Shown here piece by piece: positions 44,118 through 63,152 of a stretch of 64,000 nucleotides of DNA. Both the position numbers and the translations under genes were made by a program. This stretch comes from Parcubacteria group bacterium Gr01-1014_31 (GTDB lineage Bacteria > Patescibacteriota > Patescibacteriia > Buchananbacterales > GWA2-38-13). Location of the stretch: NCBI GenBank assembly GCA_007376135.1, contig VMFR01000001.1:379016-443015 (forward strand). Direction: 5' to 3'. How positions within the stretch are numbered: position 1 is the first letter of the stretch; the number at the start of each line of letters is the position of its first letter. Below the pieces are notes generated by a model, which worked only from the letters and a program-made list of their open reading frames with translations, had not been told where the DNA came from and ran no database searches.

Positions 44118-47100
44118 TTAGGGGTAGTTGAAGGTGGCGTCCGTCGAGGTGGCGTTCAAACGCGAGGTCGCGCTGGCGCCACTCTTGACGCGGTAACCGT
44201 TGAACCATTGCTCGGAAGTGGTCGCCGTGCCCGAGGCAACGCCGACTGCCCCCATGATGGAGGCATCACTCCAGATGAAGTGGTTCTTGTTGTCCTGGTT
44301 ACCGGTGTAGAGCAGCAATGCGCTGTCCGGGTAGGTGGACGTCGCGTTGGACGCGCCGCCCGGGAAAGCCGCATCGCCGAGGAACGACAGTTCCAACACA
44401 CCGAAGCCGCTGGTCCCACCGCAACCGCCATCAGCCCAGCAGGCCAAGTCACCCTTGAGGGTGAAGACCTTGGACTGACCGGCGATGACGCGGTAGGGAG
44501 AAACGGTCAGGTTGCCCGCCGCCGGCGCATTGCCGTCGGAGGTGAACCACAGCAGGAACACATCGTCCCGGCGGGAGTTCGTGACCGTCATGGTCTGCGC
44601 AGCGGTCGTCGTCGCGGCGATCTGCTGCGAACCATCCACGTAGATCTTCGGATTGGTCAACGTCGCGCGCTGCTGCGAGACCAGGAAGCCGACCTGGAAC
44701 AGGTAGACGTCACCGGCCGAGTCAGCCGCCACGCGGAACTTGTACAGGTCCTTGTTGGACCCGGACGTCAGCTTGCCCGGCACCAGTTTGTCGGAGCCGA
44801 GGTCGCCGTTGACCGTGACGGTCGGGACAGTGTGCATCACCGCCCAGTCGTTCAGGGTCGCACCACTCAAGGTGATCGCGGACGCAGCCAGCGTGGTGCC
44901 CGACTGGGCGCCTTTGGCCGTAACGTCCAAGGCGGCGTTGACCGTGAGCGTGAAGCCCTGGCCCGGGTCGCCGGTGGACGCCTGCGGATACCGCGTCACA
45001 GCGTTGGTGTCGATCTTGACCAAGATGTCCTTGGCCGCCGACGTCGTGACCATGATCGGGTTGGAGGTCACGTCGATGAGGACGGTGACGCGGCCCGAGA
45101 CGTTGGTCGTGGTCGGTTGCACGCCGCCCTCCGGGGTCAATCGGGTGCCACCATCGTACAGGTGGATGGCCCGGATCTGGTTGAAGGCGCTCTTGGTATT
45201 GCCCGTCGTGAGGTTGCGGGTCGAGGTGGCAGAAAGGTAGATCTTTTCCACCTTAATGGTCTCGCGCACCGACGTCATGCGGAAGATACCGGCCTCCAGA
45301 CCGGAGGTGTTGGCCGGCATCAGGCCAGCCTGGTAGTTCTGCGTCAACGCGGCAATCGTCAGGGTGCCGCCCGACTGCAGGGTCATGGTCTGACCGTCAC
45401 CCACGCTCAGCGTCACGGTCGCCGACTGGCCCGAGTCCTTGCCCGTGGCCGAGAACTGGCTGCCGGTCGCGTGCGGGGTAGGCAAACCAACGCGGATGCT
45501 GCCGGAGGTTGCCGCCGAGCTGACGTTGGCAATGACCTTGATGGTCTTGACCGTGCCCTTCGTCAGGATGAGCGGGTTGACGAACACGAACGTGGTCGTC
45601 GCGCCGCCAGCGGTTGCGCCGGTCGGGTCCGGGCTGGACGAGGTCTGCAGCGTAGTGGAGCCGTCCATGATGCGCCAGTTGGTGAAACCGTTGGGCGCCT
45701 GCGTCACGGTGAACAGCTCGGACTTCATCTGCGTGACCTTGATGTCCTCGCCGGAATCCGCGGCATCAAGCCGGAATTCGGCAAAGACCCAGTCCTGCGA
45801 ACCGCCAACGACGTTCTGCGCCACCGGCGTGTTGGAGACGGATACCGCCATCGCCGCGGTCTTCACCGTGTAGATGGCAGAGGTCTGCACGCCTGCCGGC
45901 GTCTTGTCGGCGGCCACCAGCGTTTCCCCCGTGTCCTGACCCTTGACGGTCATGGCGGTCGGGTGAATGCGCGCGCGGATCGTGTCATTCGCGCCGAAGT
46001 CTGCGTTCAGATCACCCTTAACGGTGATCGTGTGCACGCCCGGCGGCAGAATGAAGTTATCCGTGATGGTGGCAGTACCATATTCATCGGTCGCGGTATC
46101 CTCACCGATGTGGTCGGACGTCGGATCCACCGGACCACCGAGGACTTTGCCGGCGGAGTCCACCAGCTTGACCGAGGTGATGTCGCTGATCCGGGCGCCG
46201 GCCGTGGAGGTAGCCAGACGGAACTGGATACCGACCGACTCGAACGACAGCGATTCACCACGCACGTCAAAGTCGAACTTACCCAAGGTCACCTCTTTGG
46301 TGTCCTCGGCAATGTTCGAGTTGGTTGTGCCCGCAGTGGAACTCACCGCAACCGTCCCGCGGCTGATGGTGATGGTCGCCCCCTGGTTGTGGTAGGGCTC
46401 GCTGCTGTTGTTGAACGTCGGCGTCGGAGAGAACCCGAAGGTCTTGCCGATCGCAATGACGTCGTCCTGCTTCTTGATGTCCCAGCGAATCGTGCGGGCC
46501 GAACCGCTGACGATGTCGCCGCGCAGGTTGACCTGCTTGGACTTGCCCTTGGTCAGGACGATGGGGTTGGCGCGCAGGTCGAACGCGGCATCCTTGCTGG
46601 TTGCCTTGGCGACCGTCGCCACCACTACGCCGTCAATGACCAGATCGAGGTTGGTGACATCGCTGTCACCGGCCGTGCCGCCCTGGTTAAAGACGATGCG
46701 GGTCACATTGACGTCTTCGGCCGAACCGGCGGTTACCCGCAGGCCGGTGAAGATGAAGTCGGTGGTGCCGATCTTCTGCGTCGAATTGGACGGATTGTCC
46801 GAACCCGTCGTGACCGTCAGCGAACCGATGACCACGGTGTTATTCAACGTCTGGTAGTTGCCAAACAGCGGCAAGCCCGCACCGACCTGCACCGTGGAGC
46901 CCTTCATGACGATGGACCTGATGCCCAAGGTCGGGACTTCACCGGCGTAGTTGGTGAGCGCTGCCGCCATGTTGCCGGCAATGATGATCCGGCGGGTCGT
47001 ACCAGCCTTGACCACGATGTCTTCGTTGAAGACCGCCTGGTGGTCAGTGTTGAGGGTCTTGGAGGTGTTGGACAAGCGTGAGTCCGTGTCGGCATCCCAC

Positions 47101-47927
47101 AAAAGGATACCGGCGAACGCGCCGTCCTGGGCCGCGCCGCCGCCGCGCTCCACGACCACCTGATCGATGGTGGCATCACCGTCCGAAGAGGCGGTGAAGT
47201 TCACGATGGTGAACGGGACGCGGATGGCGTTCTGGACCACGATGCCCGAGGCCGGCGTATCCGACGCCAGGGCCAGGGTCAGCGTGGAGCCGACCGGACC
47301 GGTCGGAACGGTGACCGTGCCAGACAGACCCTTATCCGTGCTGATGTCCGGGGACGAAGCCTGCTGTGCCACCCGGTCGAACTCCGAAGCGGAATTGACC
47401 TTCTTGGGGGTCACTCCGTCGGTCTCGACGGCGACGCTGTAGTTGGCGAAGAACGCATCCGGCAGGTCGTTGATCTCCTTGTTCCACATGCTGCCGTACA
47501 GCGCGGTCGCAACGGCTTCCGTGGCGACATGCCACAGGACGCCGCCCTTGGCGACGACGTAGACGCGCGGGTCGGTCGTCACCTTCAACATCTTCGTGCC
47601 GGGCCGGTAGTTGACGTTCCCGCCGATCAAGTAGGATTCCAATTCGGTCTTGGCGATCTCCTTGACGGTCGAGAAGTTGGCGTACCAGGTTTTGTACGTT
47701 TTTTCATCCGGGAAAACGTAACGCTTCCCATTGCTCGCCAGGTAGTAGACCGAACGGCAAGGATCGGTCGGACCGGCAACGCCGACGCACTTGAGTTTGA
47801 TCAAGTCGCCTGGCATTGCCGCGCCCAAGGCGATGGAAACGCCCATCACCCCTACCGACCATGCGATGGTCGTACCGGCTACGGTGTAGGTAAGCGCACG
47901 CTTTACCCGCTTGGTAAAGTTGCTCAT
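44118..47927 (-). CDS. Giant secreted Ser/Thr/Gly/Val-rich beta-repeat surface protein (S-layer/adhesin-like, unknown function)
   Basis: 1269 aa; N-terminal signal/anchor KRALTYTVAGTTIAWSVGVMGVSIALGAAMPG; distinct N-terminal domain (CRSVYYLASNGKRYVFPDEKTYKTWY); then low-Cys Thr/Ser-rich repeated beta-type modules with many N-x-S/T sequons and Thr/Ser clusters. Confidence 0.6.
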   Translation of the reverse strand: MSNFTKRVKRALTYTVAGTTIAWSVGVMGVSIALGAAMPGDLIKLKCVGVAGPTDPCRSVYYLASNGKRYVFPDEKTYKTWYANFSTVKEIAKTELESYLIGGNVNYRPGTKMLKVTTDPRVYVVAKGGVLWHVATEAVATALYGSMWNKEINDLPDAFFANYSVAVETDGVTPKKVNSASEFDRVAQQASSPDISTDKGLSGTVTVPTGPVGSTLTLALASDTPASGIVVQNAIRVPFTIVNFTASSDGDATIDQVVVERGGGAAQDGAFAGILLWDADTDSRLSNTSKTLNTDHQAVFNEDIVVKAGTTRRIIIAGNMAAALTNYAGEVPTLGIRSIVMKGSTVQVGAGLPLFGNYQTLNNTVVIGSLTVTTGSDNPSNSTQKIGTTDFIFTGLRVTAGSAEDVNVTRIVFNQGGTAGDSDVTNLDLVIDGVVVATVAKATSKDAAFDLRANPIVLTKGKSKQVNLRGDIVSGSARTIRWDIKKQDDVIAIGKTFGFSPTPTFNNSSEPYHNQGATITISRGTVAVSSTAGTTNSNIAEDTKEVTLGKFDFDVRGESLSFESVGIQFRLATSTAGARISDITSVKLVDSAGKVLGGPVDPTSDHIGEDTATDEYGTATITDNFILPPGVHTITVKGDLNADFGANDTIRARIHPTAMTVKGQDTGETLVAADKTPAGVQTSAIYTVKTAAMAVSVSNTPVAQNVVGGSQDWVFAEFRLDAADSGEDIKVTQMKSELFTVTQAPNGFTNWRIMDGSTTLQTSSSPDPTGATAGGATTTFVFVNPLILTKGTVKTIKVIANVSSAATSGSIRVGLPTPHATGSQFSATGKDSGQSATVTLSVGDGQTMTLQSGGTLTIAALTQNYQAGLMPANTSGLEAGIFRMTSVRETIKVEKIYLSATSTRNLTTGNTKSAFNQIRAIHLYDGGTRLTPEGGVQPTTTNVSGRVTVLIDVTSNPIMVTTSAAKDILVKIDTNAVTRYPQASTGDPGQGFTLTVNAALDVTAKGAQSGTTLAASAITLSGATLNDWAVMHTVPTVTVNGDLGSDKLVPGKLTSGSNKDLYKFRVAADSAGDVYLFQVGFLVSQQRATLTNPKIYVDGSQQIAATTTAAQTMTVTNSRRDDVFLLWFTSDGNAPAAGNLTVSPYRVIAGQSKVFTLKGDLACWADGGCGGTSGFGVLELSFLGDAAFPGGASNATSTYPDSALLLYTGNQDNKNHFIWSDASIMGAVGVASGTATTSEQWFNGYRVKSGASATSRLNATSTDATFNYP

Positions 47928-55612: not shown

Positions 55613-55710
55613 AAGCCCACTTCCTTTCAGGTGATAATTCGCTCAAAGGACGACAACGACGCTTGAGATATAAGTCTACGCTTGGGATAAATGACGGTCA
55701 AATGATAATG

Positions 55711-55739
55711 TTGACAAAATAAGTAAAATGTGCTATTAT
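55711..55739 (+). promoter_or_regulatory. Near-consensus sigma70 promoter TTGACA-N17-TATTAT upstream of the amidase gene
   Basis: ttgacaaaataagtaaaatgtgcTATTATtagata; this is why the ORF-track GTG start at 55730 (inside the promoter) is rejected. Confidence 0.5.
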
Positions 55740-55807
55740 TAGATAGTGTTCTTTATCATTTTTTCGCTCAACAAACCAATTTCGGCTATGCCGAGAGAGG
55801 AAGAATC

Positions 55808-56566
55808 GTGAAGAGATCAAAAACGATTGATTTCATCTTCGTGATGACGGCTATCGGCGCGGCATTGGCCACCGCCGGTCTCTACCAGCGGGAGCTGAAT
55901 TCCGAACGCCAGCGCCATCGGGCCTTGGCCCAGGAACATTCCCTGCTTGGGGAAACGCTCGAACAGTGCGGGCAGGAGTTCACGCAGTCCCAGGAAAAAC
56001 TCCTGGAAACGAGCGCCACACTGCAAGCGGCAAGCGGTGAACTCCGCCTCCGCACCGAGCAGGCCAACGGGCTGCTCGCCCGTCTGGAAGCCAGCGAACG
56101 CCTGTGCGCGCTGTTGGAATGCGAAGTGGAGCGCCTTCAGCCCATGCGCAAGGTGGCCACCATCATCGTCCACCATTCCGAAAGTCCCTTTGGGGACGTA
56201 CCGACCGTGGACGCCTGGCACCGCGAGCGCGGGTTTGCGATCGGGTACCATTACCTCATCTGCAACGGCCAAGGCGGCGGCGAGGATGGCGAGATCCAGT
56301 TCGGCCGCAACGAAGACGTCCAGGGAGCCCACGCGAAGGCAAACTACCGCAACGAGGGAACCCTGGGGGTCTGCCTGATCGGCACGGACCAATTCACGGC
56401 GGCGCAAAAAAAGTCGCTGCAGGAGCTCCTACTCCATCTGTGCCGGCGGCACGGGCTCACCCCAGGGACGGGGACCATTCAAAGGCACCATGAGCAGTGC
56501 CCGGGTCCGAACCTGGATCTAGCGGCCATTATCGCCGGAGTCCAGGGCCATCTGGCCCGCAATTGA
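55808..56566 (+). CDS. N-acetylmuramoyl-L-alanine amidase (Amidase_2/PGRP domain) with N-terminal TM and coiled-coil
   Basis: ATIIVHHSESPFGDVPTVDAWHRERGFAIGYHYLICNGQGGGEDGEIQFGRNEDVQGAHAKANYRNEGTLGVCLIG. GTG start at 55808 preceded by GAGAGGAAGAA. Confidence 0.65.
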   Translation: MKRSKTIDFIFVMTAIGAALATAGLYQRELNSERQRHRALAQEHSLLGETLEQCGQEFTQSQEKLLETSATLQAASGELRLRTEQANGLLARLEASERLCALLECEVERLQPMRKVATIIVHHSESPFGDVPTVDAWHRERGFAIGYHYLICNGQGGGEDGEIQFGRNEDVQGAHAKANYRNEGTLGVCLIGTDQFTAAQKKSLQELLLHLCRRHGLTPGTGTIQRHHEQCPGPNLDLAAIIAGVQGHLARN

Positions 56567-56597
56567 GCGAAGCTCGTTCAACACAAGTTCTTTGGAA

Positions 56598-56635
56598 GCC
56601 GTCTGCATCCCTGCAGGCGGCTTTCTCTTGTATTT
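56598..56635 (+). terminator. Rho-independent terminator after the amidase gene
   Basis: gccgtctgca-tccc-tgcaggcggc (10-bp stem with one G-U pair) followed by tttctcttgtattt. Confidence 0.5.
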
Positions 56636-56704
56636 GAGCGAAATATCGGTTATAGTGAAATCCTCCGTCGGCGCGTTGCGCCAACGGCTTCAACACCGCT
56701 TTTT

Positions 56705-56728
56705 CGGGTATTAGCGCAGCGGTAGCTC
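56705..56728 (+). repeat. Partial copy of the tRNA-Pro 5' end (23 of 24 nt identical)
   Basis: cgggtattagcgcagcggtagctc compared with tRNA 5' end cggggattagcgcagcggtagcgc; no matching 3' acceptor strand follows. Confidence 0.5.
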
Positions 56729-56813
56729 CGCCATTCGACGGGGCAGGCGGACTTGGCTTGCCCCACACCTTTCCTGAATCTTTTATCCACTCTTTTCTTT
56801 TTTCGCTCTGACT

Positions 56814-56885
56814 CGGGGATTAGCGCAGCGGTAGCGCGCTTGGTTCGGGACCAAGAGGCCGGGGGTTCGAATCCCCCATCCCCGA
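56814..56885 (+). tRNA. tRNA-Pro: tRNA-Pro (anticodon CGG)
   Basis: Cloverleaf folded by hand: acceptor CGGGGAT/ATCCCCG, D stem GCGC/GCGC, anticodon stem CTTGG/CCAAG with loop TTCGGGA, T stem GGGGG/CCCCC with loop TTCGAAT, discriminator A; CCA not encoded. Confidence 0.85.
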
Positions 56886-56963
56886 GCAAGAGCGAAAACA
56901 AAACTTCCGTTTTCTGCTCCAAAACTTAAACCCCGTTGGAAAATAAGAAAGGTGTGGGGTGAA

Positions 56964-57058
56964 GGACCAAGAGGCCGGGGGTTTCCCGCCACCGAAATAT
57001 TTCTTTAAAAAGATGGGCGGGATCCCGCCGCAGGCGATGACGAATCCCCCATCCCCGA
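56964..57058 (+). repeat. Duplicated 3' half of tRNA-Pro (anticodon-stem 3' strand to acceptor end plus cccgag), interrupted by a 57-nt insertion with its own hairpin
   Basis: ggaccaagaggccgggggtt [tcccgccaccgaaatatttctttaaaaagatgggcgggatcccgccgcaggcgatgac] gaatcccccatccccgag; the flanks are identical to tRNA positions 39-73. Resembles att-site remnants of integration at a tRNA 3' end. Confidence 0.5.
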
Positions 57059-57099
57059 GAGAACGGTGATTTTTCTTGGCACGACGGGCTCAACAAGGT

Positions 57100-57993
57100 A
57101 TGTCCAACCAAGGAACGCACAACACCATCCCGGTCGCCATCATCGGCACGGGCAACATCGGCAGCGACCTGCTGGTGAAGGTCCTGCGTTCCCCGTACCT
57201 GACCTGCGCAATGTTCACCGGCCAGCATCCTGACTCGCCGGGCATCGCCAGGGCGCGGGAACTCAATATCCCCACCTCGGCGGATTCCATTGCCGCCATT
57301 GAACGCGACCCTGGTTGCTGCGACATCGTGTTCGACGCGACTACCGCCGAGGCCCATCGTCGCCACGCCACGGTCCTCGCCCGCCTGAAAAAATTCGTGA
57401 TCGACATGACCCCGTCGCAAGCCGGCGGGATGTGCGTGCCGCTCCTCAATCTGGAAGACAGCCTTGCCAAACAGAACGTCAACATGGTGACGTGCGGCGG
57501 CCAGGCCAACGCCCCCATCGCGCGCGCCATCATGGCGGTGCACCCGGACATCCAGTACATGGAAGTCGTTTCCAGCATCGCCTCCAAGTCGGCCGGCATC
57601 GGCACGCGTAACAACATCGACGAGTACACGCAGACGACCAGCGACGGCATCCGCGCGCTGGCGGGCGTGCCGCAGGTGAAAACCATCATCATCCTCAACC
57701 CCGCCGACCCGCCCTACCTGATGCACAACACCCTCTACGCCGAGATCGAACGACCCGACCTGCCAGCGCTGGAACGTTCCATCAAGCACACGGTGGAAAA
57801 GATCCGGGAGTACGTGCCCGGTTTCAGATTGCTCTACGGGCCCGTGCAGGAAAGCGGGCGCGTCACCACTATCACCGAGGTGGTCGGCCGCGGGGACTAC
57901 CTGCCCGCCTACGCCGGCAACCTGGATATCATCAACTGCGCGGCCGTGGCGGTCGCCGAACGCTACGCGAAAAAAAAACTGGGGCTGCACTAA
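57100..57993 (+). CDS. Acetaldehyde dehydrogenase (acetylating), DmpF/MhpF/BphJ family
   Basis: VAIIGTGNIGSDLLVKVLR...VNMVTCGGQA...SIASKSAGIGTRNNIDEYT...ILNPADPP...YLPAYAGNLDI, collinear with MhpF. ATG at 57100 is preferred over the TTG at 57076. Confidence 0.85.
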   Translation: MSNQGTHNTIPVAIIGTGNIGSDLLVKVLRSPYLTCAMFTGQHPDSPGIARARELNIPTSADSIAAIERDPGCCDIVFDATTAEAHRRHATVLARLKKFVIDMTPSQAGGMCVPLLNLEDSLAKQNVNMVTCGGQANAPIARAIMAVHPDIQYMEVVSSIASKSAGIGTRNNIDEYTQTTSDGIRALAGVPQVKTIIILNPADPPYLMHNTLYAEIERPDLPALERSIKHTVEKIREYVPGFRLLYGPVQESGRVTTITEVVGRGDYLPAYAGNLDIINCAAVAVAERYAKKKLGLH

Positions 57994-57996
57994 CCT

Positions 57997-59043
57997 ATGG
58001 AACGCCGCATCTTCATCGTTGATTCCACGCTGCGCGACGGCTCCCACGCCGTTTCCCACCAGCTCAACGCCGACCAGGTGCGCGGCTATGCGCAGCGCGC
58101 CGAGGCCGCCAATATCCCCCTGGTGATGGTGGGCCACGGCAACGGCCTGGGCGCGTCGAGCCTACAGCTGGGCCGTTCGCTGCTCCCCGACCGCGAAATG
58201 CTGGCAATCGCCCGGCAGGAACTGAAGCGTTCCAAACTGGGGGCGTTCCTCATCCCGGGATTCGGCACCATCAAAAACGACATCGGCCCCGCCATTGACG
58301 CCGGCATCGACGCGCTGATGGTCGCCTGCCACTGCACGGAGGCCAACATCACACGCCAGCACCTCCAGTATGCCGCCAGCCGCGGGGTTACCGCCTACGG
58401 CGTGCTGATGATGACCCACATGGCAACGCCCGGCGAGCTGCTGGAGCAAGCCAAGCTGATGGAATCCTACGGCGTCCAGGGAGTGCTCCTGATGGATTCG
58501 GCCGGCGCCTACCTGCAACGCGACGTGACCGAAAAGGTCGGCACCCTCGTTGCCGGCCTGCGGACCGCGGTCGGCTTTCATCCCCACAACAACCTCGGGC
58601 TGGCGGTCGCCAATGCGGTTGCCGCCGTCGAGGCGGGCGCCAGCATCATTGATGGAACTGCGCGCGGCTTTGGCGCCGGCGCGGGCAACGTCCAACTGGA
58701 GGTCATCATCGCCGTCCTCCACCGCCTGGGCTACCCGACCGGCGTGGACCTCTATCGCCTCATGGATGCATCCGAGTACGTCGCGCGCGAGGTGATGAAA
58801 AAACCCATTGCTATCAATGCCGTGACCCTCACCAGCGGACTGGCCGGGGTGTTCTCGGGATTCGCGCCGCACGCCATCCGCGCCGCGGAACGCTTCGATG
58901 TGGACGTACGCGACATCCTGATGGAATTGGGACGCCGCAAAGCCGTCGGCGGCCAGGAAGACCTCATCTTGGACGTGGCGATGAACCTGAAACAGAAGAA
59001 AGAACAACGGCCTGAGGATTTTCAATTGGAATCCCTGTCATAA
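57997..59043 (+). CDS. 4-hydroxy-2-oxovalerate aldolase family (DmpG/MhpE/BphI-like, HMGL-like TIM barrel)
   Basis: IVDSTLRDGSHAVSHQ...VGHGNGLGASS...HPHNNLGLAVANAVAAVEAGASIIDGTARGFGAGAGNVQLEV...GRRKAVGGQEDLILDVA. Confidence 0.85.
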   Translation: MERRIFIVDSTLRDGSHAVSHQLNADQVRGYAQRAEAANIPLVMVGHGNGLGASSLQLGRSLLPDREMLAIARQELKRSKLGAFLIPGFGTIKNDIGPAIDAGIDALMVACHCTEANITRQHLQYAASRGVTAYGVLMMTHMATPGELLEQAKLMESYGVQGVLLMDSAGAYLQRDVTEKVGTLVAGLRTAVGFHPHNNLGLAVANAVAAVEAGASIIDGTARGFGAGAGNVQLEVIIAVLHRLGYPTGVDLYRLMDASEYVAREVMKKPIAINAVTLTSGLAGVFSGFAPHAIRAAERFDVDVRDILMELGRRKAVGGQEDLILDVAMNLKQKKEQRPEDFQLESLS

Positions 59044-59052
59044 CTTCAGCCT

Positions 59053-60843
59053 ATGCGCGTTGCCGACTACATCGTCAAATTCCTGGAAGACCAGGGGGTC
59101 CGCACGATCTTCATGATCGCCGGCGGGCAGGCAATGTGGCTCAACGACGCGCTGCAGCGCAGCGGAATCTCCCCCGTCTGCACCCACCACGAACAAGCCG
59201 CGGCCATGGCCGCGGAAGCGTACGGCCGCATCTCCGGAAAACTCGGCGTCTGCATGGTCACCGCCGGCCCGGCCGGCGTCAACGCGCTCAACGGCGTGGT
59301 CGGCGCCTACGTGGATTCGTCGCCAATGCTGGTCATCTCGGGCCAGTCGGCGCTGCCGAACGTCGAGTACATGAAACAGAGCGGCATCCGCCAGTACGGC
59401 CTGCAAGGCATCTTGCTCGAACCGATGATCAAGCCCGTGACCAAATACTTCGTCACGGTGGACGACGCGGCGTCGATCGCCTACTACCTGGAGAAAGCGG
59501 TCTGGGAGGCGACCACCGGACGACCCGGCCCGGCCTGGATAGAAGTGCCGCTGGACGTGCAGCGCATGGAGGTGCCGGAAAAATTGCTGCGCCACTTTAC
59601 CCCGCCCCAGCTCCCCGCACCCGCGGCGCAGTTATTCGAGCACGCGGCCGCGACCGCGGCGCTGGTGAGCAAGAGCAAACGCCCGTTGCTGCTCGTCGGC
59701 CAGGGGGTGCGCATCGCCAAGGCGCAGGCGGCGGTCGCCAAACTTTTGGCGCGCGCGCCCATGCCGGTCGCCACCACCCGATTGGCCATTGACGTCGTGG
59801 ACAGCGGTAATCCCCTGTTTGCCGGCCGCCCGGGATTGTACGGCGACCGCTCGGCCAATTTCGCGGTGCAGACCGCCGACGTCATCGTGGCAATCGGCGC
59901 GCGGCTGGATCCGGGGATCGTCGGCTACGACGCCAAAGACTGGGGTCGGCGTGCCCAAAAGGTCATCGTGGACCTCGACGACAAGGAGCTACACAAGCCA
60001 GGCCTTGAGCGCGCCACCCGCTACCGCCATGACGCGCGCGCGTTCCTGGAGGCTTTGGAGGGGGCGCTGGCCACGACCGCCTGGCCCGACCGGCAGCGCT
60101 GGATCACCCGCTGCCAAACGTGGCGGCGCGACTATCCCACCGTCAGTCCCGCCTATCAAAAAGAAACCCCGGTGAATTCCTACTATCTTGCCGAACGCCT
60201 GTCCCACGCGGCCGACGTTGGTGACGTCGTCGTGGTCGACACCAGTTCTCCGTTCCACGTCGTCTGCCAAGCCTGGCATCTAAAACTCGGCCAGCGCTTC
60301 CTTACCACCGGCGGCATCTCCACCATGGGCTACTGGGCGGCGGGCATCGGCGCGTGCCTCGGCGACGGCAAACGGCGCACCATCATCGTCACGGGCGACG
60401 GCTGCCTGCAGATGAACCTCCAGGAACTGGCGACCATCAAGCACCATCAGCTCCCCATTAAACTGTTCGTCATCAACAATAACGGTTACCTGCTCATCCG
60501 CCACACGCAGAAAACCCACATGGAAGGCCGCATGATCGGGGAGAGCCCGGCCTCGGGCCTGTGGTGCCCCGACAGCACCAAGATCGCGGGGGCCTACGGC
60601 ATACCGGCGGTACGGATTGCCTCGCCCGAGGGCATTGACGACAAGATCCGGCAAGTGCTGAACACCGACGGACCGGTCATCTGCGACGTCCTCTCCCCCG
60701 AATGGCAAATGATCGTACCCCGCGTCGCGTCCGAAAAGCGGCCGGACGGCTCGATGGTATCGCGGCCGTACGAAGACCTCTTCCCATTCCTTCCCCCCGA
60801 CGAACTGCGGCGCACGCTCGCCGTGGATGACCCCGCGCAGTAA
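59053..60843 (+). CDS. Thiamine-diphosphate-dependent enzyme, acetolactate-synthase large-subunit family (YerE-like candidate for 2-carbon branch attachment)
   Basis: N-terminal Pyr domain TIFMIAGGQAMWLNDAL...HHEQAAAMAAEAYGRISGKLGVCMVTAGPAGVNALNGVVGAY; C-terminal ThDP-binding GDGCLQMNLQELATI...FVINNNGY. Confidence 0.75.
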   Translation: MRVADYIVKFLEDQGVRTIFMIAGGQAMWLNDALQRSGISPVCTHHEQAAAMAAEAYGRISGKLGVCMVTAGPAGVNALNGVVGAYVDSSPMLVISGQSALPNVEYMKQSGIRQYGLQGILLEPMIKPVTKYFVTVDDAASIAYYLEKAVWEATTGRPGPAWIEVPLDVQRMEVPEKLLRHFTPPQLPAPAAQLFEHAAATAALVSKSKRPLLLVGQGVRIAKAQAAVAKLLARAPMPVATTRLAIDVVDSGNPLFAGRPGLYGDRSANFAVQTADVIVAIGARLDPGIVGYDAKDWGRRAQKVIVDLDDKELHKPGLERATRYRHDARAFLEALEGALATTAWPDRQRWITRCQTWRRDYPTVSPAYQKETPVNSYYLAERLSHAADVGDVVVVDTSSPFHVVCQAWHLKLGQRFLTTGGISTMGYWAAGIGACLGDGKRRTIIVTGDGCLQMNLQELATIKHHQLPIKLFVINNNGYLLIRHTQKTHMEGRMIGESPASGLWCPDSTKIAGAYGIPAVRIASPEGIDDKIRQVLNTDGPVICDVLSPEWQMIVPRVASEKRPDGSMVSRPYEDLFPFLPPDELRRTLAVDDPAQ

Positions 60844-60849
60844 TTCTCT

Positions 60850-61971
60850 ATGCCGCTCAAACCCTCAAAGAAAAAGATCGCGTTTGCCGGCTCCTCCATG
60901 ACCCAAAAAGAGGTCGACTACGTCGTCGACGCGGTCAAGCACGGCTGGTACGACACTTTTGACAAGGATACCAAACTGTTCGAACAAGGAATTGCCGCCT
61001 ATACCGGACGCGCCTACGCGCTGGCCGGTTTTTGCTGCACCCATTCCATGCACCTGGGGTGTCTGGTCTCGGGCTTCGGACCCGGGGACGAGGTCATCTG
61101 CACCGATTTTTCCTGGGCGGCCACCGCGCACGTCATTGCCTACACGGGGGCCACTCCCGTGTTCGTGGACATCGACCCCGATACCTGGTGCATCGACCCC
61201 AAAGCGATCGCCGATGCCATCACGCCAAAGACCAAGGGCATCATGCTGGTGCACAGCTTCGGCCAGCCGGCGGATATGGATGCTATCATGCGAATCGCGC
61301 GCGAGCACAACCTGCGTGTGGTGGAGGATGCCGCGCCGTCACTCGGCTCGATGTACCACGGGAAAAGCGTCGGCAGCTTCGGCGACGTCGGATGTTTTTC
61401 CTTCCATGGCGCCAAGATCGCGGTCAGCGGCGAAGGCGGGGTATTTCTGACCGACCGCAAGGAGATGTACGACCAGGCGGTGTTACAATCCAACATGGGA
61501 CGCACGAACCGTTTGGCGAACTTCTGGTGCGATTCCATGGGCTACGAATACCAAATGGCCAATGTCGTCGCGGCCCTGTGTCGCGCCCAGGTAGAACGCA
61601 TCGAAGAATTGGTTGCCATGAAACGCCGGATCTTTGACTGGTACTGGGAACGGCTCAAGAACGTGCCGGAGCTCAAACTCCTGCGCGAAAAACCCGATAC
61701 CCGCTGCAATTACGCCTACCCGGCGGTGCTGCTGCAGACCGACGAGATCAGCCGCAACGACCTTGTTTCCCAGTTAAAAACTCTCAACATCCACGCCCGC
61801 GCGGCCTTTCCGCGTATGAGCAAATTCCCGATGTACCAGGCGCGCTTCAAAAATCCGGTCGCCAGCCTCGTGGAAACCCATGGCTTTAATCTGCCGTCCG
61901 CGCTTAATATCACGGAAGCGGACGCGGACTTCGTATGCACCGCCGTCAAACACCTGCTGGGCCGCAGCTAA
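60850..61971 (+). CDS. DegT/DnrJ/EryC1/StrS-family PLP-dependent sugar aminotransferase
   Basis: DVGCFSFHGAKIAVSGEGG (catalytic Lys present, unlike rfbH), DEVICTDFSWAATAHVIAY, RVVEDAAPSLGS. Confidence 0.85.
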   Translation: MPLKPSKKKIAFAGSSMTQKEVDYVVDAVKHGWYDTFDKDTKLFEQGIAAYTGRAYALAGFCCTHSMHLGCLVSGFGPGDEVICTDFSWAATAHVIAYTGATPVFVDIDPDTWCIDPKAIADAITPKTKGIMLVHSFGQPADMDAIMRIAREHNLRVVEDAAPSLGSMYHGKSVGSFGDVGCFSFHGAKIAVSGEGGVFLTDRKEMYDQAVLQSNMGRTNRLANFWCDSMGYEYQMANVVAALCRAQVERIEELVAMKRRIFDWYWERLKNVPELKLLREKPDTRCNYAYPAVLLQTDEISRNDLVSQLKTLNIHARAAFPRMSKFPMYQARFKNPVASLVETHGFNLPSALNITEADADFVCTAVKHLLGRS

Positions 61972-63152
61972 AAAAAATCGGCTCGCCGATATCCTGCCTG
62001 CGGCCGCTGCCGGAGGACGAGATCTTCGGTCTCCAACGGGCCTTTGCCGCCGACCCGCGACCGGAAAAACTGAACGGCGCCATTGGCGTATACACCGACG
62101 AGACCGGCAAACCCTTCGTCCTGCCGGTCGTTCGTCAGGCGTTCGAGCATTTACAGGCGTCCAATTTCAACTACCTGCCCATTAGCGGCGACCCGCGATT
62201 CTTGGAACTGACCGCAAAGCTGGTATTCGGCGAGCAGCGGTACGCCACCCTCGCGCCAACCTTGGCGGCCCAAGGCGTTTCCGGCGGCACCAACGCGCTG
62301 TCGCTGTTCGGGAGTCTGGCAAAAGCCGCCGACCGGCGGCCGACCCTGATCATCGGCGAACCGACCTGGGAAAACCACAAAAAGATCTTCGACCACCTGG
62401 GCTTTGCCTGGAAAATATTTCCGCACCTGACCGCGGCGTACACCTTCAACCTGACGGCAGCCCTCGCGGCGCTCAAAACGCGGCGGCCGTCATGGGTGCT
62501 GCTGCACGGCGGAGCAACGCACAACCCGACCGGCGTGAACCCGGCCCAACAGGAATGGCAGATCCTTGCCCGCACCATGGCCGAGTATGGCCACACGGCC
62601 TGCGTGGACCACGCCTATACGGGTTTGGGCGACGGACTGATTGAGGACTCCGCGCCCATTCACCAGTTGATTGCCGCCGGCGTGCCCACGTTCATCGCCG
62701 TCTCTTTTTCAAAAAATATGACTCTCTACCAGCACCGCGCCGGTGCGCTGCTGTATGCGGGTAAAACCGCCAAGGAAAAAACCGCCGTTGCCAGCCATCT
62801 GGAGCACCTGTTCCGGGCAACGAACTCCAACCCGCCGGCGGCCGGCGAACTGGTGGTCGGCAAGATCCTCTCCGAACCGCAGCTCCGGCGGCAGTGGGAG
62901 GGAGAACTGGCCGCAATGCGCTCCAGCATCAATGAACGGCGCGCGCAGTTCATAAAACTCGCCGGCGCACCCTACGGCTACCTGGCGCGATGCCGCGGGC
63001 TGTTCTCCCTACTGCAGCTTGGAATCAAGCGCATCCGAGCACTGCGGGAACAGCAGGGCATTTACCTGCTGTCCAGCGGCCGCGTGAACTGGGGCGGCAT
63101 CGCCAGTGCCGACCTGCCGCGACTGGCCGAGGTCGTCCGTACCGCCGATTGA
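61935..63152 (+). CDS. Class I aminotransferase, AspC/TyrB-like
   Basis: Collinear with E. coli AspC: LNGAIGVYTDETGKPFVLPVV, HGGATHNPTGVNP, SFSKNMTLYQHRAGAL, NSNPPAAG, SGRVNWGG. Only ATG is at 61935, overlapping the DegT gene by 37 nt; start uncertain. Confidence 0.75.
   Translation: MHRRQTPAGPQLKKIGSPISCLRPLPEDEIFGLQRAFAADPRPEKLNGAIGVYTDETGKPFVLPVVRQAFEHLQASNFNYLPISGDPRFLELTAKLVFGEQRYATLAPTLAAQGVSGGTNALSLFGSLAKAADRRPTLIIGEPTWENHKKIFDHLGFAWKIFPHLTAAYTFNLTAALAALKTRRPSWVLLHGGATHNPTGVNPAQQEWQILARTMAEYGHTACVDHAYTGLGDGLIEDSAPIHQLIAAGVPTFIAVSFSKNMTLYQHRAGALLYAGKTAKEKTAVASHLEHLFRATNSNPPAAGELVVGKILSEPQLRRQWEGELAAMRSSINERRAQFIKLAGAPYGYLARCRGLFSLLQLGIKRIRALREQQGIYLLSSGRVNWGGIASADLPRLAEVVRTAD

What the first reader, a model, noticed from the sequence alone, without database searches (positions are those of the whole stretch)
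56705..57058. tRNA-Pro(CGG) flanked by a 5' partial copy and a 3' partial copy split by a 57-nt hairpin-containing insertion
Seen in sequence: an intact 72-nt tRNA-Pro (56814-56885); a 24-nt copy of its 5' end 86 nt upstream of the tRNA 5' end (copy at 56705-56728); and, 78 nt downstream, a copy of tRNA positions 39-73 plus cccgag whose T-loop is interrupted by a 57-nt AT-rich insertion carrying a cccgcc...ggcggg stem. Established knowledge: integrative elements target tRNA 3' ends and leave direct repeats of the tRNA 3' half. Inference: these are scars of one or more integration/excision events, consistent with the downstream gene set being acquired. No integrase is present in the window, so the element is not intact here. 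A nested small mobile insertion inside the att scar is an alternative reading.
Basis: partly seen in the sequence, partly recalled or inferred. Interest (0 to 1): 0.55.

Follow-up and report, generated by a model that had tools for sequence, protein, structure and literature searches.

The report
Working tRNA nested inside broken tRNA
The two "partial copies" are the halves of an old proline tRNA gene that was split by inserted DNA carrying a working replacement copy. The same tRNA-inside-a-dead-tRNA layout recurs in other ultra-small (CPR) bacteria, which points to selfish DNA that targets tRNA genes rather than to a recently acquired gene island.

Summary
The 5' fragment (56705-56726, continuing at 56747-56756) and the 3' fragment (56964-56983 plus 57041-57059) are complementary. 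Together they make one "ghost" tRNA-Pro gene interrupted three times:
- a 20-22-nt hairpin in the D arm;
- a 203-nt insertion in the anticodon loop, which holds the intact tRNA-Pro(CGG) (56814-56885) on a long leader/trailer stem closed by a perfect 13-bp inverted repeat;
- the 57-nt insertion between T55 and C56.

The ghost sits where relatives at about 75% ANI have an uninterrupted tRNA-Pro behind the same promoter. Two closer relatives (93-99% and about 88% identity) keep the nested layout and the same downstream genes, so those genes are not a recent island. No integrase, distal repeat or viral match was found.

The ghost carries lineage-specific stem-breaking changes, so it is probably dead. 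The inner cassette has been swapped between lineages. The same architecture occurs in Kerfeldbacteria and another Patescibacteria MAG. Elsewhere, intact small GIY-YIG nuclease genes sit between a tRNA and a hairpin-scarred ghost fragment, in one case with an insertion at the same T55/C56 site.

Best reading: a scar-rich landing site of tRNA-targeting selfish DNA. The mechanism is inferred, not shown.

The parts
56594..56625 (+). Intrinsic terminator of the upstream Amidase_2 gene (14-bp stem followed by a T run)
   Evidence: conserved in L083, L084, L086 and L087
56628..56656 (+). Promoter-like TTGTAT-17 nt-TATAGT that precedes the ghost tRNA. The same TTGTnT-17-TATA(G/C)T precedes the uninterrupted tRNA-Pro in relatives L086 and L087.
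   Evidence: Read from the sequence. The stricter consensus scan did not call it, so this is an inference.
56705..56726 (+). Ghost tRNA-Pro, 5' piece: sequence positions 1-22 (acceptor 5' strand, D stem/loop). 21/22 identical to the intact tRNA; the window-specific G5T change breaks the acceptor pair.
   Evidence: L083 and L084 have 22/22
56727..56746 (+). Insertion 1 (D arm): TCCGCCATTCGACGGGGCAG, a small GC hairpin. Equivalent to a 22-nt insertion because the flanking GC is duplicated.
   Evidence: A T-to-C change in L084 turns a T.G pair into C-G. Hairpins at the analogous position occur in L014, L018, L130 and L010.
56747..56760 (+). Ghost tRNA-Pro, second 5' piece: GCGGACTTGG matches tRNA 21-30 (8/10 here, 9/10 in L083, 10/10 in L084) and includes the anticodon-stem 5' strand CTTGG. 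It is followed by CTTG.
56761..56773 (+). Left arm of the perfect 13-nt inverted repeat (CCCCACACCTTTC) that bounds the 199-nt module inserted in the ghost's anticodon loop
   Evidence: I2; these are the only two copies in the window; identical in L083 and L084
56774..56813 (+). Inner left flank (allele A). The last ~14-16 nt form the leader strand of the extended acceptor stem.
   Evidence: (I1). Replaced by unrelated sequence in L083, which again pairs with its trailer.
56814..56885 (+). Intact, presumably functional tRNA-Pro(CGG), without an encoded CCA
   Evidence: 100% identical in L083 and L084
56886..56946 (+). Inner right flank (allele A). The first ~14-16 nt form the trailer strand pairing with the leader.
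56947..56959 (+). Right arm of the 13-nt inverted repeat (GAAAGGTGTGGGG), followed by TGAA (56960-56963). TGAA also follows the equivalent repeat in L010.
56964..56983 (+). Ghost tRNA-Pro, 3' piece A: last anticodon base through T55 (sequence positions 35-54), 20/20
56984..57040 (+). Insertion 3 (T loop, between T55 and C56), 57 nt. Starts TCCCGCCACC (tRNA-3'-end-like), has an AT-rich middle and a CCCGCC/GGCGGG/CCCGCC hairpin set, and ends GATGA.
   Evidence: It is 93 nt in L083 with the same ends. It is replaced and deleted in L084.
57041..57059 (+). Ghost tRNA-Pro, 3' piece B: C56 to the discriminator plus 1 nt (19/19)
57100..57993 (+). First gene of the conserved downstream cluster (DmpF-like acetaldehyde dehydrogenase). 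Context only, not part of the element.

Best explanation
The region is a ghost tRNA-Pro gene containing its own replacement.

An ancestral tRNA-Pro(CGG) gene stood directly behind the promoter that follows the amidase terminator. It was split in its anticodon loop by a ~200-bp module bounded by inverted repeats. That module carries a complete tRNA-Pro(CGG) on a long leader/trailer stem.

Once the inner copy supplied the function, the outer gene was free to decay. It picked up further footprints: a small GC hairpin in the D arm, and an insertion exactly between T55 and C56 of the T loop.

The agent is most likely selfish DNA that targets tRNA genes. Candidates are a site-specific nuclease or recombinase acting in trans, or one whose gene has since been lost. 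The inner cassette has been exchanged horizontally between related lineages.

Shown here:
- the anatomy;
- its conservation and recurrence in other lineages;
- the decay of the outer copy;
- the exchange of the cassette.

Inferred, not shown:
- the enzyme responsible (small GIY-YIG nucleases are the best lead);
- the order of events;
- that the leader/trailer stem serves pre-tRNA processing.
For: 1. The fragments are complementary. Ghost pieces cover tRNA sequence positions 1-22, 21-30, 35-54 and 55-73, in that order, around the intact gene. Removing the three insertions in silico gives a cloverleaf that ARAGORN accepts. The whole region folds as a nested cloverleaf.

2. The ghost is at the ancestral position. 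In L086 and L087 (about 75% identity), an uninterrupted tRNA-Pro(CGG) follows the same terminator and promoter at the place of the ghost's 5' end.

3. The ghost is decaying while the inner copy is constrained. The inner tRNA is 72/72 identical in three genomes. The ghost has lineage-specific disruptive changes:
- window: G5T and C25G;
- L084: loss of the variable loop and the T-stem 5' strand;
- L083: an extra 40 nt near the 3' end.

4. The cassette behaves as a module. The 199-nt module folds with z = -5.6. L083, the closest relative, has completely different inner flanks between the same repeats and the same tRNA. L084, the more distant relative, shares the window's flanks at 92-98%.

5. There is a recombination-like tract. 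Identity between the window and L084 is 96.6% over about 56528-56970. The tract starts abruptly inside the amidase coding sequence. Four-fold sites are 74% identical and other intergenic regions are 50-80% identical.

6. The leader/trailer stem is kept despite unrelated sequences: 9 of 16 pairs change on both sides, and 84% of cells are paired against about 45% in slid controls. Stems this long are rare among the 197 tRNAs scanned.

7. The architecture recurs.
- L014 (Kerfeldbacteria) has a 5' ghost plus hairpin, an inverted-repeat-bounded insertion with an intact tRNA-Pro on a 12-19-bp stem, and a 3' ghost with a T-region insertion.
- L010 (Patescibacteria) has a nested tRNA-Pro(GGG) and a 5' ghost at its tRNA-Pro(CGG). 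The L010 ghost differs from its inner tRNA by compensated stem changes, which implies a foreign incoming copy.

8. There is a nuclease link. Small GIY-YIG ORFs (Pfam E 1e-13 and 1e-9) lie between an intact tRNA and a ghost fragment with a palindromic junction in L018, L160, L130, L210 and L211. L211 has an insertion at T55|C56, the same site as the window.
Against: - No nuclease, recombinase or transposase gene lies at the locus. No GIY-YIG similarity is detectable anywhere in the window, so the agent is not identified.
- The insertion ends do not restore a normal 7-nt anticodon loop when removed. CTTG on the left and TGAA on the right are unexplained, so no clean target site can be reconstructed.
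- The module and its repeats are single-copy in the 64 kb examined. Mobility is inferred only from comparison between genomes.
- Ghost and inner tRNA are nearly identical in this lineage. This fits a local duplication equally well.
- The high conservation of the non-coding block could reflect function rather than recent exchange.
- The association with GIY-YIG genes comes from a handful of loci found opportunistically. It is not a systematic survey, and one family member (L212) has no tRNA nearby.
Confidence: 0.6

Rival explanations
1. Classic att scars of tyrosine-integrase islands. One or more islands integrated into the tRNA-Pro 3' half and were later almost entirely deleted, leaving displaced 3' fragments. 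The downstream cluster is island cargo.
For: - A displaced 3' fragment starts in the anticodon loop and has a second break in the T loop. From memory (Williams 2002, not retrieved here), both are preferred integrase crossover sublocations.
- PMC4383910 gives the general model of a regenerated tDNA plus a displaced fragment.
- The 57-nt piece begins with a foreign-looking tRNA 3' end, TCCCGCCACC. This is what an island-borne replacement end would look like.
Against: - No integrase from 52.3 to 68 kb.
- No distal repeat.
- The downstream genes are syntenic in relatives, and there is no compositional break.
- An upstream 5' fragment and the nested geometry are not produced by 3'-end integration.
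- No viral contig carries these sequences.
Confidence: 0.15
2. Purely local origin. Tandem or fold-back duplications of the tRNA gene arose during break repair and partial copies then decayed, with no mobile element involved.
For: - Ghost and inner tRNA are almost identical in this lineage and in L014.
- The junctions carry palindromic GC hairpins.
- Partial tRNA-Pro copies next to intact genes are common in unrelated metagenome loci.
Against: - Two independent deletions would have to leave exactly complementary halves.
- The L010 ghost and its inner tRNA differ by compensated changes, so they have different origins.
- The inner cassette is swapped between close relatives and shared with a more distant one.
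Confidence: 0.12
3. The whole ~355-nt unit is a functional composite RNA. Either the outer tRNA is a multi-intron tRNA-Pro(UGG) whose anticodon-loop intron holds tRNA-Pro(CGG), or the ghost and long stems are a conserved processing scaffold for the inner tRNA.
For: - Removing the three insertions gives ARAGORN tRNA-Pro(TGG).
- The predicted fold is nested.
- The non-coding block is far more conserved than neutral sites.
- The leader/trailer pairing covaries.
- Patescibacteria do have tRNA introns at position 35/36 (PMC13011429).
- The L010 ghost has intact acceptor and T stems.
Against: - No Rfam family other than tRNA scores E <= 2 in the region. The sub-threshold hits (E 0.9-7, all far below their gathering scores) include no group I intron or self-cleaving ribozyme.
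- The 5' junction lacks the U and the 3' junction lacks the terminal G that a group I intron needs.
- No bulge-helix-bulge geometry is apparent on reading the junctions by eye.
- The ghost has uncompensated stem-breaking changes, and L084 has lost half its T arm.
- The identity tract begins abruptly inside a coding region, which suggests recombination rather than selection.
Confidence: 0.07

Closest known systems
Genomic islands integrated in tRNA genes by tyrosine integrases (Islander-type; PMC4383910)
   Same: A tRNA gene is split, a copy restores function, and a displaced tRNA fragment remains as a direct repeat. The breakpoints fall in the anticodon loop and the T loop.
   Different: There is no integrase and no island. 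Both 5' and 3' fragments are displaced, because a whole tRNA sits inside the old gene. The module is bounded by inverted rather than direct repeats.
Free-standing GIY-YIG homing endonucleases acting in tRNA gene regions (phage T4 SegB; PMC2330249, PMC13096335), and the small GIY-YIG ORFs found here beside tRNAs (L018, L160, L130, L210, L211)
   Same: A nuclease gene is associated with tRNA genes. Flanking tRNA sequence is co-converted or duplicated. In the loci found here there is an intact tRNA plus a ghost fragment with a palindromic junction, and in L211 an insertion at T55/C56.
   Different: The window has no GIY-YIG ORF or detectable remnant. The proteins seen elsewhere are catalytic-domain-only (85-100 aa), and their targets are untested.
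Group I introns at position 35/36 of Patescibacteria tRNA-Asn and tRNA-Asp (PMC13011429)
   Same: Same phylum, and the same place in the anticodon loop is interrupted by ~200 nt.
   Different: There is no group I intron signature (Rfam, splice-site nucleotides). The insert contains a tRNA gene and is closed by a terminal inverted repeat.
Archaeal multi-intron and split tRNA genes (Thermoproteales, Nanoarchaeum). This comparison rests on my own knowledge, not on a paper read here.
   Same: Interruptions in the D arm, anticodon loop and T loop. The halves are held together by a long complementary stem.
   Different: This is a bacterial genome. No bulge-helix-bulge motif is apparent, and the outer copy shows decay.
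MITE-like non-autonomous transposons
   Same: ~200-bp module with perfect 13-bp terminal inverted repeats. A possible 2-bp TG duplication occurs here and in L010.
   Different: It is single-copy in the 64 kb examined. It carries a tRNA gene. Removing it does not restore the target.

Membership tests
tRNA-integrated genomic island (tyrosine integrase) | Integrase gene next to the regenerated tRNA | tested here: not met
   Precomputed Pfam calls for all genes from 52.3 to 68 kb show no integrase. The rest of the window was not scanned.
tRNA-integrated genomic island (tyrosine integrase) | Displaced 3' tRNA fragment marking the far end of a cargo-bearing island | tested here: not met
   The fragment lies only 78 nt from the tRNA. 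No further copy exists in the window or out to 67993.
tRNA-integrated genomic island (tyrosine integrase) | Island present or absent among relatives | tested here: not met
   The downstream cluster is syntenic in L083 and L084.
GIY-YIG nuclease element at tRNA genes | GIY-YIG ORF between the intact tRNA and the ghost fragment | tested here: not met
   tblastn with two family members finds nothing in the window.
GIY-YIG nuclease element at tRNA genes | Intact tRNA plus ghost fragment carrying a short GC palindrome or hairpin at the junction | tested here: met
   Window 56727-56746, compared with L018, L160, L210 and L211.
GIY-YIG nuclease element at tRNA genes | Nuclease cleaves the cognate tRNA gene | not testable with these tools
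   Needs biochemistry.
Group I intron in a tRNA anticodon loop | Covariance-model match to the group I core | tested here: not met
   No RF00028 hit, even at E <= 10. None in the relatives either.
Group I intron in a tRNA anticodon loop | U before the 5' splice site and G as the last intron base | tested here: not met
   The junctions read ...CTTG|CCCC and ...TGAA|GGACC.
Archaeal-type spliced or split tRNA | Bulge-helix-bulge motif at the exon-intron junctions | tested here: not met
   Judged by reading the junctions by eye: a continuous 13-bp (16 bp with wobble pairs) helix with only a one-sided bulge. No motif search was run.
Archaeal-type spliced or split tRNA | Splicing endonuclease and ligase encoded in the genome | not testable with these tools
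   Only 68 kb of the genome is available.
MITE | Terminal inverted repeats | tested here: met
   13/13 (I2).
MITE | Multiple copies in the genome | tested here: inconclusive
   No other copy in 64 kb. L010 has two related repeat arms (CCCGCCTAA..) at two tRNA-Pro loci.

The most novel reading that the evidence does not exclude
The ~355-nt unit may be a functional nested RNA gene rather than a scar. On this reading, a bacterial pre-tRNA has an outer tRNA-Pro body interrupted in the D arm, anticodon loop and T loop. It harbours a second tRNA in its anticodon-loop insert. It is then processed into two tRNAs (CGG and UGG), or it uses the ghost cloverleaf and long stems as a dedicated maturation scaffold.

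A less radical version is also open: a previously undescribed family of inverted-repeat-bounded, tRNA-carrying cassettes that insert into the anticodon loop of their cognate tRNA in CPR bacteria.
Probability: 0.07. Interest if true: 0.9.

Novelty: new variant of a known kind. Interest (0 to 1): 0.58.

Why it matters
**Annotation.** tRNA fragments next to a tRNA are routinely read as integrase att scars that mark an island. Here that reading would wrongly label a conserved sugar-modification gene cluster as acquired.

**Biology.** A complete replacement tRNA nested inside the anticodon loop of its dead predecessor recurs in at least three Patescibacteria lineages. It comes with covarying leader/trailer stems and swappable cassettes. 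This suggests a tRNA-targeting selfish element, or a repair pathway, that has not been described in the literature I could search.

The repeated co-occurrence of small GIY-YIG nuclease genes with ghost tRNA fragments gives a testable candidate for the enzyme. It also suggests a role for a very large family of uncharacterised single-domain GIY-YIG proteins.

Ghost copies may also act as harmless landing pads that protect the working gene.

Tried and rejected
- **Second functional tRNA.** Rejected. Rfam and ARAGORN see only one tRNA.
- **Group I intron or ribozyme in the inserts.** None found. Apart from tRNA, Rfam gives only sub-threshold chance-level hits (E 0.9-7) to unrelated families.
- **57-nt insert as a dispersed repeat.** It is unique in the window. 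The motif YCCGCCAYYCGA and the 13-nt repeat occur at chance level elsewhere.
- **Phage or viral origin.** Five exact-pattern scans of viral contigs found nothing.
- **Genome-collection scan with RarA.** It returned only relatives at 60% identity or less. That did not give orthologous loci, but it did by chance give the nested L014 and L010 loci.
- **Metagenome scan with the anticodon-arm 23-mer.** The pattern was too generic: 120 unrelated loci and none from this lineage. It did yield L130, L135 and L160.
- **Contigs of the ~75% relatives.** They end inside the tRNA. Their downstream state is unknown, and P0023 (L208) starts too late to help.
- **GIY-YIG remnant in the window.** Not detectable.
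- **Bulge-helix-bulge geometry and a clean target-site duplication.** Neither fits; both were judged by reading the sequence.
- **Selection as the only cause of the conserved block.** Weakened by the abrupt start of the tract inside the amidase coding sequence.
- **Literature.** Searches found no description of nested tRNA genes or of GIY-YIG/tRNA ghosts in Patescibacteria.

Full report
**Observation**

The window contains one bona fide tRNA, tRNA-Pro(CGG) at 56814-56885 (Rfam 71.5 bits; ARAGORN).
- 56704-56726 matches the tRNA 5' end at 22/23;
- 56964-56983 and 57041-57059 match its 3' part at 20/20 and 19/19;
- these two blocks are separated by 57 nt.

Shuffles give no such matches by chance. 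An independent Logan assembly is base-for-base identical over 15.6 kb, so this is not an assembly artefact. The organism is a CPR bacterium, named in the protein database as Parcubacteria group bacterium Gr01-1014_31.

**Anatomy**

Reading outward from the intact gene shows more than was reported.

- *Leader/trailer stem.* The leader and trailer of the tRNA are complementary for about 14-16 bp, extending the acceptor stem (I1).
- *Inverted repeat.* A perfect 13-nt inverted repeat (56761-73 / 56947-59) closes a 199-nt module that folds far better than shuffles (z = -5.6).
- *Upstream of the module.* The 5' copy does not end at 56726. After a 20-22-nt GC hairpin (56727-56746) it resumes as GCGGACTTGG. 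This matches tRNA positions 21-30 at 8/10 here and 10/10 in relative L084.
- *Downstream of the module.* The 3' copy starts at the last anticodon base.

The fragments are therefore complementary halves of one tRNA-Pro gene. I call it the ghost. It is interrupted three times: in the D arm, in the anticodon loop (203 nt, holding the intact tRNA), and between T55 and C56 (57 nt). Removing the three insertions in silico yields a sequence that ARAGORN calls tRNA-Pro(TGG). The whole region folds as a cloverleaf within a cloverleaf.

**Relatives**

Exact-protein look-ups recovered the orthologous locus in two other assemblies:
- L083, at 93-99% nucleotide identity;
- L084 (GCA_030648715.1), at about 88% identity, with four-fold sites 74% identical.

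Both keep the nested arrangement and the gene order amidase - tRNA region - DmpF/DmpG/TPP enzyme/DegT/aminotransferase/radical SAM. GC content does not change across the tRNA. No integrase lies within 52.3-68 kb. No further tRNA-Pro fragment exists up to 11 kb downstream. This argues against the downstream genes being a recently integrated island.

In two more distant relatives (about 75% identity; L086 and L087), the same terminator and the same TTGTnT-17-TATA(G/C)T promoter are followed by an uninterrupted tRNA-Pro(CGG). It sits where the ghost's 5' end lies. The ghost therefore occupies the ancestral gene's position. Those contigs end inside the tRNA, so their downstream state is unknown.

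**Is the ghost alive?**

The inner tRNA is identical in all three genomes. The ghost carries different damage in each:
- window: G5T and C25G, both breaking stems with no compensation;
- L084: loss of the variable loop and the 5' strand of the T stem;
- L083: an extra 40 nt near the 3' end.

No Rfam family other than tRNA scores E <= 2 in the region. The remaining sub-threshold hits (E 0.9-7, far below their gathering scores) include no group I intron or self-cleaving ribozyme. This holds for the relatives too. The junction bases do not fit a group I intron. By eye, the junction geometry does not fit a bulge-helix-bulge motif. I therefore consider the ghost a pseudogene (about 0.75).

**Turnover**

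L083, the closest relative, has entirely different sequence between the inverted repeats and the tRNA on both sides. Yet its leader and trailer again pair perfectly for 13 bp. L084, the more distant relative, shares the window's flanks at 92-98%.

Across three independent sequence versions (allele A, allele B and Kerfeldbacteria), 9 of 16 leader/trailer pairs change on both sides. 84% of cells are paired, against about 45% when the partner is slid.

The non-coding block from about 56528 to 56970 is 96.6% identical between the window and L084. Four-fold sites are 74% identical and other intergenic regions are 50-80% identical. The tract begins abruptly 44 nt inside the amidase coding sequence, next to a stretch only 58% identical. 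That looks like a recombination or co-conversion tract.

Together these points indicate that the cassette is exchanged between lineages. They also indicate that the pairing of its flanks is either selected (a processing stem) or produced by the insertion mechanism.

**Recurrence**

Loci fetched for another purpose show the same design in other Patescibacteria.

- *L014 (Kerfeldbacteria).* A 5' ghost (17 nt) is followed by the hairpin TCCCGACGGAAGTCGGGA. A 7-nt inverted repeat brackets an intact tRNA-Pro(CGG) on a 12-19-bp leader/trailer stem. A 30-nt 3' ghost follows, then a ~180-nt T-region insertion and the ghost's last 19 nt.
- *L010.* It has a nested tRNA-Pro(GGG), and each of its other two tRNA-Pro genes also has a flanking ghost fragment. 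The ghost differs from the inner tRNA by compensated changes in the acceptor and T stems. The two copies therefore have different origins. The same CCCGCCTAA.. repeat arm occurs at two of its tRNA-Pro loci.
- *L031 (Uhrbacteria).* Its tRNA-Thr has an 18-bp leader/trailer stem without a ghost. Such stems are otherwise rare among the 197 tRNAs scanned.

**A candidate agent**

In L018 (Patescibacteria, tRNA-Asn), L160 and L130 (tRNA-Pro), and L210 and L211 (tRNA-Asn, other phyla), a small GIY-YIG ORF (Pfam PF01541) lies between an intact tRNA and a ghost fragment. Its stop codon falls inside tRNA-derived sequence. The ghost carries a short GC palindrome at the junction: TCCGCCAAGGCGGA, TGGCGCCGTCGGCGCCA or TTCGCCGCGGCGAA.

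The L018 hairpin starts with the same TCCGCCA as the window's D-arm insertion. L211 has a 24-nt insertion exactly at T55|C56, as in the window.

The window itself has no GIY-YIG similarity, and one family member has no tRNA nearby. This link is therefore a lead, not a demonstration. T4 SegB is a precedent for a GIY-YIG nuclease that acts in tRNA gene regions and drives co-conversion or amplification (PMC2330249, PMC13096335; abstracts).

**The 57-nt insertion**

On its own, its hairpin is unremarkable (z = -1.4), and it is unique in the window.
- In L083 it is 93 nt with the same first ~35 nt and the same last ~5 nt.
- In L084 it is replaced by a different sequence that begins with a near-copy of that genome's D-arm insertion.
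- It starts TCCCGCCACC, which matches the 3' end of the Kerfeldbacteria tRNA-Pro.

This piece could be the remnant of an event that brought a foreign tRNA 3' end.

**Verdict**

The finding is real and more structured than described. It is best read as a ghost tRNA-Pro gene containing its replacement. It was shaped by tRNA-targeting selfish DNA and later recombination, not as the edge of an acquired island.

The kind of thing is known: tRNA genes as targets, with displaced fragments as scars. The nested, inverted-repeat-bounded, tRNA-carrying cassette, its recurrence in CPR bacteria, and the GIY-YIG association are, as far as I could find, undescribed.

What remains unexplained:
- the enzyme;
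- the CTTG/TGAA junction bases;
- whether the leader/trailer stems act in RNA processing.

Noticed in passing
window 47781-47869 (-): ARAGORN calls an 89-nt tRNA-Gly(TCC) here. It lies inside a 1269-aa ORF (44118-47927, -) and has no Rfam support, so it is almost certainly a false positive.
   Followed up: yes
window 57100-63152 and on to ~66600 (L001): The downstream cluster is DmpF-like, DmpG-like, TPP enzyme, DegT aminotransferase, aminotransferase, radical SAM and an AIR-synthase-like gene. In a 67%-identical relative (L209), the DmpF/DmpG/TPP trio sits among glycosyltransferase, epimerase and DegT genes. It looks like a sugar-modification pathway rather than aromatic catabolism.
   Followed up: partly
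window 55613-55843: The UppS-amidase divergent intergenic region is 95.7% identical to L084. Neighbouring genes are about 88% identical and other intergenic regions 50-80%. The amidase N-terminal region carries a large indel between the two genomes.
   Followed up: no
L086 4923 and L087 4785 (contig ends): Two Logan contigs from different samples both stop at the same place inside tRNA-Pro (…GGACCAAGAG[G]). This suggests a repeat or strain variant beginning in the variable loop in those lineages too.
   Followed up: no
L010 1112-1524 (-) and 7509-7722 (+): One 7.8-kb Patescibacteria contig carries all three tRNA-Pro isoacceptors, and each has ghost fragments. After tRNA-Pro(TGG) there is an inverted copy of its T arm, about 130 nt of GC-rich structured sequence, and a 3' ghost preceded by GCAGTGA. 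Compare GCGATGA and GCGGTGA before the ghost T loop in the window and L083.
   Followed up: partly
L018 421-681; L160 4904-5137; L130 4261-4486; L210/L211 1501-1761: The small GIY-YIG ORFs end inside tRNA-derived sequence. The stop codon is supplied by the TAA of the tRNA-Asn anticodon loop (GTTAA), or by the TAG of the D loop (GGTTAG or GGCTAG). The L130 ORF is frameshifted.
   Followed up: partly
L083 2930-2969: A strain-specific 40-nt addition after the ghost's 3' end: a 30-nt piece followed by a repeat of CATCCCCGAG. The piece contains a scrambled T-arm-like sequence (GGTTCCCCCGAAACC).
   Followed up: no
L135 1400-1525 (-): In an unrelated metagenome contig, a 39-nt 5' copy of tRNA-Pro(CGG) lies 24 nt upstream of the intact gene. 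Upstream 5' ghosts are therefore not unique to CPR.
   Followed up: no
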